Shown: piece by piece, positions 53,680-56,533 of the stretch
Numbering within the stretch: position 1 is the first letter of the stretch
How the letters are laid out: each line of letters starts with the position of its first letter
Assembly (NCBI GenBank): GCA_951406725.2
Contig: OX597840.1
Coordinates: 38,316,001-38,380,000 of the forward strand
Length of the DNA stretch: 64,000 nt
From: Octopus vulgaris
Taxonomy: Eukaryota
Reading direction: 5' to 3'
Position numbers and translations under genes: made by a program
Notes under the pieces: generated by a model
Database searches by the model: none
Seen by the model: only the letters and a program-made list of their open reading frames with translations
What the model was told of the DNA's origin: nothing

Positions 53680-53885
53680 ACGGGAAGCTTTATGAAAATA
53701 AACAAAAGACGAAGGCAGGTGGAGTACAAACAAATAATGTATTAGTATGGCGCTCAGGAATATAAATAAAACAAGTCTTTTACGTTTCGAACCTACGCTC
53801 TTCAACAGAAAGATACACAGAGAAGAAACACAGAAAGAAGGAGAGAGAAAAAATGCGTGCAGAGGCTAGCGAATCAACATGGCGA
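53680..53885 (-). mobile_element. ~200-bp HHR-bearing element inserted in (TA)n
   Basis: Minus strand 53776-53813: TCTTT-CTGTTGAA-GAGC gtag GTTC-GAAAC-GTA-AAAGA. (TA)n on both sides; close to the reverse complement of 56337-56533. Confidence 0.8.
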
Positions 53886-54570
53886 TATATATATATATAT
53901 ATATATAATATATAAGAAAATGGAGGAAAAATAACAATAGCAACAACAACAGCGACAACAATAATAACATTGATGATATATTTGTGATTATAATTTAAAT
54001 GTAAAATTTCCTGAGAAATGTGGTTTACAATATTTCTAGAAATAGCCCAACAATTACTGCTTTGGCCGAGGTCAAATTACAGGTCGCTTGACATGTTCAA
54101 CAAACGCCTAAATCAAACACCAATCAACTTAAGTAATTTAGTGAAGCAACAAACCGATTGGTCAGAATACGTTTTGCAAAAGAAATTAATATTCTGGAGC
54201 CTATACAAATGTATTTAAGACTCACAGATTAGGCATCTCACCACAGATGTAAATTGTGAAACTGAACTTTCACATGAACCTGAATATTGCATAGTTTAAA
54301 TTCATGAAATTAGTTCAGTCAGAATGGACATTTGATATTCCATCATTTCAGTATATTATATTATTGTAAGGTTGTAAATAAAACGTGAAAATCTGTTGGA
54401 ATTCTTTTGAATTCTATACACAATCATATACATACATATATATATATATGTGTGTGTCTGTGTGTATAAATATATATATATATATATATATACAAAGACA
54501 CATACACACACACACACACACACACACATATATATATATACGAATATATATGTATATATGTATGTATATA

Positions 54571-54760
54571 GTGGTAATTTGCAAAAAATCAAAAGACGAA
54601 GACAGGAGTATAAACAACAAACATATGTATTAGTTTAACGCTCTGGAAGGTGAGAAAGTCTTTTACGTTTCGAGCCTACGTTCTTCGACAGAAATGAACA
54701 CGAGAAAATAGACAGAGTGAATAAGAAAAAATAAGGCTTTAGTGGTTACATTGTTCTGAT
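54571..54760 (-). mobile_element. ~200-bp HHR-bearing element
   Basis: Minus strand 54659-54696: TTT-CTGTCGAA-GAAC gtag GCTC-GAAAC-GTA-AAAGA. Confidence 0.72.
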
Positions 54761-54799
54761 TAAGAGGAAACAGAGTAAGAAAAAAACAGATGGTTGTCT

Positions 54800-55295
54800 A
54801 CTTACTCGTTATGCAGAGCCTGACTTCCTGTTGTACTTACACTTTAGATTCATCGTGGCAATTTATCTGTTTTTTCAACCGGGCAATGTATTTAAAGGAC
54901 ATCCACATACATTACTTTTCTGGTTTGGACCCACCACGATTTGCTGTAAAGTTTTGATCTTTGTGGACCTTAGAATGTCTTTTGAGGCCTCCATTAAATT
55001 TGCAGACTTTATGGCATTCACGACATTAAAAGGTGTGCACAGATAGATACATGCACAATAGTTGGTGAAAGTTCGTTATTTTTAAGGGTCCGCAAATGAG
55101 ATTTGAGCCTAGCAAAAGAAAGGCTCGGTCTGTCACAAAACGCGTACACGAAAAGATCGCCGAGATTCACCTGCTCGTTGATCGCAACATTCTTCTTTAA
55201 ATCGTTCTTGAGTGTGGCATGTGTAATCCTCCTCAAACGATTTCACTCCACTCCACTCTTTTGATCGCCAGCTTGCTCGATCGAAGCAAGGGTTT
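54800..55295 (-). mobile_element. Decayed 3' end of an RTE-clade LINE with C-terminal C2H2-like zinc fingers
   Basis: Minus-strand remnants DRASWRSKEWSGVKSFEE, FCDRPSLSFARLKSHLRT, ECHKVCKFNGGLKRHSKVH, NVCGCPLNTLPG; short AGTA tail. Confidence 0.65.
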
Positions 55296-55599
55296 CTATA
55301 TATAGGTGTATAGCTATATACACACATACACACAGACACGCACACACACACACGAACACATCTATATGTATGTGAGTAATAATATTCATGTATAGGTCAA
55401 CATTTTCTATATCTTCATATACATGCCCAGGGTTATGTTTTTCAATAAAGTTAGCTACTGTATTTAACCGCTGTTATACAGTTGTCGTTTCACTGCATTG
55501 GTAAATACAGGATTTTGTCTAAAGTTTGCGTGCAAATAATCTGCACATCTCTCTCTCTCTCTCTCTGTTTGCTTGATTTGTAATGCTCTTTGGATACAA

Positions 55600-56080
55600 A
55601 ATTCTTCCTTGTGCAGTGTCGTCCTCTGTCTAAGAGACATTCCTGCTTGACCAATATTGTTTTGTCCACACCATGAACAAGTTATGGCGTAGATTAAGTT
55701 TTCGGATGGAGAAGTAAACTCAGTGTTAATTTTCAATATTTATCCTCGTTTTAAGTTGAATTCTGACCGTTTCAGTATATTGGGATATGTTTCACAATTA
55801 GGTCCCCTGCATCTTTCATCTCTTGGTTTCTGTTGTTGCTCCGTAAATTTTCGAAGCTCTCAGTATTAACTTTTGTGGTTTTAGATTTCATTTTGTACTT
55901 TTAGTGAATTTGTGTGTACCAAGAATCTAGTTCAAAATAGGGTCCTTAGGGACTACGGTTAAATTTTGAATAATAGTGTTACACACATCATTGTATCTAG
56001 GGGTGTTGGTAGATAAATATTGCATTTTAAATTGGATGTGTTATTTCGTCTTCTCCTAATGTCTAGATACCAATGCTCAA
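55600..56080 (-). mobile_element. Penelope-like (Neptune-type) GIY-YIG endonuclease remnant
   Basis: Minus strand RCRGPNCETYPNI..KINTEFTSPSENLIYAITCSWCGQNNIGQAGMSLRQRTTLH: decayed Cx4CxxC linker plus LIY-(Y)IG, with stops. Confidence 0.75.
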
Positions 56081-56336
56081 CATTCATCATATGAATATAT
56101 TTAAATATATAGATGCATATAACATTACATATACATATGTATACATATAATAATATTAGGGAGTAAATCCAAACTTACAGGGAAAAATTAGATTTAGGAT
56201 TAAATCTAATTTTATAGTATAAATATATACATTAATTTTTTTTATTAATTAATTTTATTTCTATGTACTGGTTTATGATTTTCACTGTTTGATTTGCCTA
56301 ATGATGGTTTTATCTGTAATTTAATATGTATGTATA

Positions 56337-56533
56337 CGCCATGTTAGATCGTTAGCTCCTAAACGCAATTTTTTCTCTCCTTGTTTCTTTTCTGTGTATC
56401 TTTCTGTCGAAGAGCGTAGGCTCGAAACGTAATAGGCTTGTTCTATTTCTATTCATGAGCGCCATACTAATACATTTGTTTGTTTGTACTCCACCTGCCT
56501 TCGTCTTTTGTTTATTTTCGTAAACCTTCCCGT
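56337..56533 (+). mobile_element. ~200-bp HHR-bearing element adjoining (TA)n
   Basis: 56399-56436: TCTTT-CTGTCGAA-GAGC gtag GCTC-GAAAC-GTA-ATAGG; starts CGCCATG and ends CTTCCCG before (TA)n. Confidence 0.8.

What the first reader, a model, noticed from the sequence alone, without database searches (positions are those of the whole stretch)
53680..56533. ~200-bp family with an atypical hammerhead core (CUGUYGAA) and compensatory stem changes
Seen: copies at 53680(-), 54571(-) and 56337(+) carry CTGTTGAA, CTGTCGAA and CTGTCGAA. That is U in place of the normally invariant A6 plus an extra A before stem II (consensus GAGC-gtag-GCTC), then GAAAC-GUA with a loopless ACGU stem III. The copy at 38404 has stem I CCTTT/AAAGG where 53776 has TCTTT/AAAGA (a compensatory U-A to C-G change), and the relative at 27973 keeps the GAGC/GCTC stem with a different loop. 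Inference: a deviation shared by independent insertions is ancestral to the family rather than decay. This would be either a new natural HHR core variant or a fold repurposed as an RT-recognition signal.
Basis: partly seen in the sequence, partly recalled or inferred. Interest (0 to 1): 0.74.

Follow-up and report, generated by a model that had tools for sequence, protein, structure and literature searches.

The report
Penelope hammerhead with fixed U6 core
These 200-base repeats are the cut-short tail ends of a very abundant Penelope-type jumping gene whose hammerhead self-cutting RNA motif has carried U instead of the normally required A at one core position throughout the family's history, so it likely cuts only slowly, if at all, which is untested.

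Summary
The sequences are as described. The repeats are not a separate 200-bp family: they are 5'-truncated 3' ends (pLTRs) of a Neptune/Nematis-type Penelope-like element; longer copies carry RT and GIY-YIG remnants. The extra A and the loopless ACGU are standard for Penelope minimal hammerheads. Only U6 is unusual, and it is real: 17,610 of 18,333 exact genome matches have U6 and 226 have A6. All six subfamily consensi keep U6. Across them, 35 of 38 motif columns are invariant against 83 of 146 in the flanks, and the changes fall on N7, H17 and the outer stem I pair, as for a hammerhead. Copies do not pile up at the predicted cut site, so cleavage is not shown. Best reading: a slow, dimer-dependent ribozyme; rival: a non-cutting RNA signal. 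I found no natural A6U in print, but could not read one key survey. This scan noted other core substitutions in Penelope hammerheads on other DNA.

The parts
56337..56533 (+). 5'-truncated PLE 3' end (pLTR), young C7 subfamily, followed by (TA)n
56399..56436 (+). minimal type I hammerhead motif: C3 at 56404, U6 at 56407, H17 at 56431, predicted cut 56431|56432; private U.U in stem I
53680..53884 (-). 5'-truncated PLE 3' end, young U7/C7 group, inserted in a long (TA)n
53776..53813 (-). hammerhead motif, C3 at 53808, core CUGUUGAA, private G-U in stem II
54569..54750 (-). 5'-truncated PLE 3' end, older U7 subfamily (this copy has C7)
54659..54696 (-). hammerhead motif, C3 at 54691, private A.C in stem II
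38402..38592 (-). 5'-truncated PLE 3' end, G7 subfamily; motif at 38492-38529 with private G5C and a private A-to-G in stem I
27975..28162 (+). copy of sister family B; motif at 28043-28078, core CCGACGAA (A6 kept, C4), 3-nt loop II

Best explanation
The repeats are 5'-truncated 3' ends of a Penelope-like retrotransposon that carry a minimal type I hammerhead motif with a family-wide U at core position 6, and the motif likely still works as a slow, dimer-dependent self-cleaving RNA that would trim or circularise tandem transcripts of the element. Shown: the carrier, the fixed 3' end before (TA)n, variable 5' truncation, U6 in all six subfamilies, and constraint that spares N7 and H17. Inferred: (1) the element RNA anneals by an internal UA run to a nicked (TA)n target and is reverse-transcribed from there through the motif; (2) two motifs in one tandem transcript pair through their ACGU palindromes to form stem III; (3) U6 lowers the rate, by analogy with A6C, and is predicted to favour an inactive rod fold in the monomer; (4) slow cutting or re-ligation leaves templates that are continuous across the site, which is what nearly all inserted copies record.
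For: Carrier: long copies L061-L066 give RT (Pfam RVT_1, E 5.5e-7; 4.8e-8), a C-x4-C-x2-C linker and a GIY-YIG region (E 0.0022, below the Pfam cut-off) on the motif's strand. L062 is a partial tandem with a motif at each end about 4.2 kb apart. ORF remnants lie upstream of copies from 5 of 6 subfamilies. U6: 17,610 U, 226 A and 497 C/G; 12 of 12 family copies in 400 kb taken at fixed positions; 141 of 155 copies not chosen by a core pattern. Constraint: 35 of 38 motif columns invariant against 83 of 146 flank columns, Fisher p 2e-5. Leaving out N7 and H17, 1 change was seen where about 21 were expected at the flank rate. N7 takes all four bases; H17 takes A or U (C in one small B group); G8, G12, C3-G8 and A15.1-U16.1 never change in 9 consensi. 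Stem I pair 4 is C-G in family A and G-C or G-U in family B. Precedent: natural A6C is slow in Mg2+ but active, and faster in Mn2+ (PMC3088659 section 8; PMC7151607).
Against: No sign of cleavage in the genome. TA-joined copies that start at successive positions across the cut site number 2, 2, 6, 6, 4, 4 and 3 independent loci, with no peak (hand count; one subfamily-type anchor), and a control site in loop II gave 12 matches against 14 matches, 11 independent, at the cut. In a type III hammerhead all single and double mutants of the CUGA region except the C3-G8 swap had low activity (PMC9901934, passages). Even canonical minimal hammerheads cleave poorly in vitro (PMC4209133). The active dimer is predicted less stable than two monomers by 2.8-7.8 kcal/mol (tertiary contacts not modelled). 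Loop II and several flank blocks are also invariant, so protein or sequence recognition could explain part of the constraint. Invariance of U6 alone is not significant, since 57% of flank columns are invariant. 3 of 13 copies of one B group have G17.
Confidence: 0.55

Rival explanations
1. The motif no longer cleaves. It is kept as a folded or sequence signal for the element's RT or for template handling, and U6 became fixed because catalysis was dispensable.
For: Mutations in CUGA usually cripple cleavage (PMC9901934, passages). There is no pile-up of 5' ends at the cut site. 36 of 43 unselected family A hits and 19 of 19 family B hits span the site. Loop II is as invariant as the core. Sister family B independently spread a C4 core. 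Naiad PLEs thrive without canonical hammerheads (PMC8557442, passages).
Against: The only core positions that changed are N7 (3 changes) and H17 (2 changes, both A to U, never G in family A consensi), the ones free in catalysis, while all catalytic residues stay fixed. A6C and U4C variants are on record as slow but functional (PMC3088659).
Confidence: 0.32
2. The U6 core is fully competent in the cell because a cofactor (element protein, a chaperone or Mn2+) rescues it, so U6 acts as a gate and not only as a brake.
For: A6C shifts a hammerhead from Mg2+ to Mn2+ use (PMC7151607, parts 1-2). U6 did not revert in any subfamily although flank consensi diverged by up to 35%. U6 gives a rod-like monomer fold as the lowest-energy structure in 6 of 6 consensi and hides ACGU more than A6 does in 5 of 6.
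Against: No data on A6U activity were found. The folding differences are small and reverse in the C7 subfamily. There is no genomic trace of cutting.
Confidence: 0.1
3. U6 is decay: a dead ribozyme carried along neutrally by a successful element.
For: Each window copy has private lesions, and copies drift from their own consensus inside the motif almost as much as outside (4.2% against 5.5%).
Against: That drift is after insertion. Along the replicating lineage the motif changed far less than its flanks.
Confidence: 0.03

Closest known systems
Minimal type I hammerheads (min-HHR) in pLTRs of metazoan Penelope-like elements (Cervera and de la Pena 2014, PMC4209133; main text parts 1-2 of 4 and part 2 of 3 of supplementary file 2 read)
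   Same: Sits in the pLTR on the sense strand; short stem I of 4-5 bp; extra base between A9 and G10.1; G10.1-C11.1 pair; palindromic ACGU with no loop III; most copies solitary; U-rich 5' flank.
   Different: Their consensus is CUGANGAH and every example in the supplement part that I read has A6; their descriptor fixes the catalytic boxes. The core variant they report is U3-A8. Here position 6 is U family-wide, and stem II is only 4 bp.
Natural A6C hammerhead of phage Bcep176 (Perreault et al. 2011, PMC3088659, section 8 and passages; Naghdi et al. 2020, PMC7151607, parts 1-2 of 4)
   Same: A pyrimidine at core position 6 in a natural motif.
   Different: C and not U; a single phage ribozyme, not a high-copy retroelement family; its activity was measured (slow in Mg2+, faster in Mn2+), whereas none is measured here.
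Neptune/Nematis EN+ Penelope-like elements (as described in Craig et al. 2021, PMC8557442, passages)
   Same: [quoted passage not shown]
   Different: Non-canonical core. No RT tree was built, so Neptune and Nematis were not told apart.
Short-stem-III hammerheads of PLEs that cleave as dimers (Lunse, Weinberg and Breaker, RNA Biol 14:1499; seen only as a reference listing)
   Same: By title: small variants tied to PLEs that act as dimers.
   Different: Unknown; the paper is not held, so it may already list A6U.
Metazoan non-LTR retrozymes (bioRxiv 10.64898/2026.07.22.740005, part 1 of 5 read)
   Same: Short PLE-related units with a type I hammerhead.
   Different: Retrozymes are tandem non-autonomous units. 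Family A copies are dispersed truncations of the autonomous element itself. I did not search the genome for tandem arrays.

Membership tests
EN+ Penelope-like element (Neptune/Nematis type) | RT ORF upstream of the repeat on the same strand | tested here: met
   broken into pieces in all 6 long copies read
EN+ Penelope-like element (Neptune/Nematis type) | C-terminal GIY-YIG with internal cysteines and a CX2-5CxxC linker | tested here: met
   motifs read in translations; Pfam GIY-YIG E 0.0022, below the gathering score
EN+ Penelope-like element (Neptune/Nematis type) | Partial-tandem pLTRs flanking the ORF | tested here: met
   1 of 6 long copies (L062) reaches the 5' pLTR
EN+ Penelope-like element (Neptune/Nematis type) | Clade placement by RT phylogeny | not tested
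   no reference PLE proteins were fetched
PLE minimal hammerhead (min-HHR) | Type I layout with stems I and II and palindromic 15.1-16.1 without loop III | tested here: met
   stem II pairs match the consensus pair in 241-249 of 256 copies
PLE minimal hammerhead (min-HHR) | Extra base after A9 and G10.1-C11.1 pair | tested here: met
   9 of 9 consensi
Hammerhead ribozyme (canonical core) | C3, U4, G5, G8, A9, G12, A13, A14, A15.1-U16.1, H17 | tested here: met
   6 of 6 family A consensi
Hammerhead ribozyme (canonical core) | A6 | tested here: not met
   U in 17,610 of 18,333 exact-context matches; filed as a variant, not a canonical member
Hammerhead ribozyme (canonical core) | Site-specific self-cleavage | not testable with these tools
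   needs a bench assay
Hammerhead ribozyme (canonical core) | Genomic trace of cleavage (copies starting at N1.1) | tested here: inconclusive
   no enrichment, small numbers; re-ligated templates would leave no trace
Non-LTR retrozyme | Tandem non-coding units, each with a hammerhead | tested here: inconclusive
   the copies read are dispersed and continue into a PLE ORF; no genome-wide tandem search was run

The most novel reading that the evidence does not exclude
A natural A6U hammerhead that is catalytically gated: silent as a monomer rod, switched on in the dimer by the Penelope protein or Mn2+, and kept so through the whole history of one of the genome's most abundant retroelements. Together with the C4 core of the sister family, it would show that Penelope elements repeatedly select for damped ribozymes because their RNA must stay intact across the site to be copied.
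Probability: 0.25. Interest if true: 0.75.

Novelty: new variant of a known kind. Interest (0 to 1): 0.5.

Why it matters
What Penelope minimal hammerheads do, and whether they cut at all in cells, is an open question (PMC4209133, PMC8557442). This family is a natural experiment. A base thought essential was replaced and stayed replaced while the rest of the core remained under strong constraint in a lineage with tens of thousands of copies, next to a sister family with C4 or a canonical core. Assaying the three cores side by side would show whether selection acts on cleavage or on something else. It also suggests that descriptor searches requiring CUGANGA miss large hammerhead families.

Tried and rejected
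Rfam scan: no hammerhead match at the finding among the 150 of 224 rows shown; the microRNA hits are microsatellite artefacts. Older canonical A6 subfamily: suggested by a tree (146 of 195 rows, unreliable root) and rejected; the best relatives of an A6 copy had U in 21 of 30, C in 6 and A in 3, and two of those three were already picked for A6. Defined 200-bp SINE with a fixed 5' end: rejected for family A; 5' ends scatter around an AT microhomology zone and many copies run on upstream. Compensation at stem I pair 5: rejected. Cut-site pile-up: not seen. ORF for family B: none beside 25 loci; longer copies show the same truncation pattern. Sequencing runs: no RNA holder listed on record; contigs of 4 runs showed no other base at position 6 at the 5% level but cannot show ends or expression. 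No solved structure matched the RT piece. A-to-I editing cannot turn U6 into A (own knowledge). Literature: hammerhead + A6U returned one twister paper; searches listed no report of a U6 hammerhead family, judged from listings and the passages read. Two papers were not held: Lunse 2017 and one structure review.

Full report
Observation. A profile search finds five related stretches in the window: 56337(+), 53680(-), 54571(-), 38404(-) and the more distant 27975(+). The window lies in a 2.8-Gb genome with 227 contigs, about 30 of them chromosome-sized. It is octopus-like by size and microsatellite load; that is my inference. No PLE protein remnant was found in the window.

What the repeat is. 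Thirty best genomic matches share a fixed 3' end followed in most cases by (TA)n and differ at the 5' side. Walking upstream, six copies extend more than 1.5 kb. Fetched in full, they carry pieces of an RT, a C-x4-C-x2-C linker and a GIY-YIG region on the motif's strand. Pfam gives RVT_1 at E 5.5e-7 and 4.8e-8 and GIY-YIG at E 0.0022, the latter below its cut-off. One of the six, L062, reaches the upstream pLTR: a second motif copy lies about 4.2 kb upstream, begins a few bases before the core, and is followed by a short TA run and unique sequence. This is the partial-tandem layout of EN+ Penelope-like elements, with the Neptune/Nematis linker (PMC8557442, passages). The 5' ends of short copies scatter around an AT-rich microhomology zone. 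The '200-bp family' is therefore the truncated pLTR. Forty 10-kb stretches taken at fixed positions held 12 family A and 8 family B copies, roughly 80,000 family A copies if representative; the positions were near contig starts and may be repeat-rich.

What is ordinary. Cervera and de la Pena describe PLE minimal hammerheads with a short stem I, an extra base after A9, G10.1-C11.1 and a palindrome in place of stem III, working weakly as dimers (PMC4209133). Their consensus is CUGANGAH, and all examples in the supplement part I read have A6. The extra A and ACGU are thus expected; U6 is not.

U6 is family-wide. In the exact context CTG-x-N-GAAGAGCGTAGGCTCGAAAC the genome holds 17,610 U, 226 A and 497 C or G. 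Among the first 100 listed U6 matches N7 is T in 40, A in 24, C in 21 and G in 15 (hand count). A tree suggested an older A6 clade, but the nearest relatives of an A6 copy were U in 21 of 30, C in 6 and A in 3, so A6 copies are best read as changes after insertion. Relatives of the 54571 copy were U in 28 of 30. Of 155 copies not picked by a core pattern, 141 have U6; many of these are best matches to U6 queries, so the 12 of 12 in the fixed-position sample is the cleaner figure.

Constraint. I aligned 256 of 266 distinct copies (10 dropped as short or poorly matching) and assigned them to six A and three B groups by flank sequence with the motif masked; the seed groups were partly chosen by core type. 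Family A consensi differ by up to 35% in the flanks and at most 8% in the motif. 35 of 38 motif columns are invariant against 83 of 146 flank columns (Fisher p 2e-5). On an assumed ladder tree the motif shows 3 changes at N7, 2 at H17 and 1 at the outer stem I pair; outside N7 and H17 about 21 were expected. Copies drift from their own consensus at similar rates inside and outside the motif (4.2% and 5.5%), so the constraint acted on the replicating lineage. ORF remnants lie upstream of copies from five of six subfamilies, so U6 belonged to the autonomous element. Limits: one group has only 7 copies and one B group 4; several flank blocks and loop II are also invariant; invariance of U6 alone proves nothing about selection for U.

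Covariation. The fourth pair does swap: C-G in family A, G-C in 27 of 30 B2 copies and G-U in 9 of 13 B1 copies. Stem II never changes at consensus level and gives no covariation. Family B has 12,734 exact-context matches, mostly CCGACGA and CTGACGA in the first 100 listed. It keeps A6 and its largest sampled group has C4. Its ORF was not found. Other motif families with canonical cores also occur in the fetched DNA, so U6 is probably derived on the branch to family A.

Does it cut? Natural A6C is slow but active (PMC3088659 section 8), much slower in Mg2+ and rescued by Mn2+ (PMC7151607). A natural U4C variant is weak in vitro yet supports viroid infection (PMC3088659). In a saturation study, changes in the CUGA region gave low activity (PMC9901934). 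That U4 and A6 belong to one turn is recalled, not checked. I found no data on A6U. As a genomic test I counted copies joined to (TA)n at or near the predicted cut: 14 matches, 11 independent, against 12 at a control site in loop II. By single base across the site the independent loci number 2, 2, 6, 6, 4, 4 and 3, with no peak at N1.1 (hand count, four duplicated loci counted once). Of unselected 3'-part hits, 36 of 43 in family A and 19 of 19 in family B span the motif. Templates were therefore almost always continuous across the site: uncut, or cut and re-ligated. Folding predicts a rod-like monomer in which U4-G5-U6 pair with the ACGU palindrome in 6 of 6 consensi; U6 hides the palindrome more than A6 in 5 of 6. 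These are small energies from a model without tertiary contacts.

Mechanism. Most likely the element RNA anneals by its internal UA run to a nicked (TA)n and is copied from there; most copies stop after about 200 bases. In tandem transcripts two motifs could pair and cut slowly, giving unit-length or circular RNA, the role proposed for PLE hammerheads (PMC4209133). A damped core would protect templates. All of this after the anatomy is inferred. I put slow dimer cleavage at 0.55, a non-cutting signal at 0.32, cofactor-gated full activity at 0.10 and neutral decay at 0.03.

Novelty. The arrangement is known; the fixed U6 core is a variant I did not find in the searches. The main survey of PLE hammerhead variants was not held, and supplementary file 1 of PMC4209133 could not be searched, so prior mention is possible. 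Earlier notes of this scan report C6, A4 and C4 cores in other Penelope families, on other DNA; they are unchecked. No note matched this sequence.

Noticed in passing
window 29156-29226 (-): Separate hammerhead-like motif (Rfam HH9, 33 bits, below the gathering score) in another repeat with relatives in L221 and L083.
   Followed up: partly
window 25294-25338 (+): Minimal hammerhead-like motif with a U3-A8 core, an extra base after A9 and a palindromic stem III.
   Followed up: no
window 36909-36952 (+): Minimal hammerhead-like motif with a canonical CUGAAGA core; relatives in L212 and L223.
   Followed up: no
L076, L133, L151, L161: Another dispersed family with a canonical CUGAUGA core, a long stem II and a palindrome-type stem III.
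   Followed up: no
L081:1429-1620: Chimera with a family B 5' part and a family A 3' part; the switch lies inside the hammerhead, upstream of loop II and not at the cut site, likely an RT template switch.
   Followed up: partly
L178, L180, L095:8776: Three older-looking family B copies have G at position 17; possibly a subfamily.
   Followed up: no
L062:3375-3545 versus 7547-7742: The 5' pLTR carries a 29-base duplication near its 3' end that the 3' pLTR lacks; other copies (L035, L043, L052, L054, L057, L059) end with it. This bears on circular versus linear templates.
   Followed up: no
first 7 bases of the family A unit, e.g. window 56337-56343: CGCCATG is invariant in all six subfamily consensi, as are blocks near the 3' end. 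It resembles a YY1 core (recalled, untested).
   Followed up: no
window 28299-28377: Perfect inverted repeat of about 79 bases, possibly a small transposon remnant.
   Followed up: no
window 4408-4908 and 4994-5511; 13914-14431; 57435-57669: Another dispersed repeat family of up to about 500 bases, with two adjacent copies at 4.4-5.5 kb.
   Followed up: no
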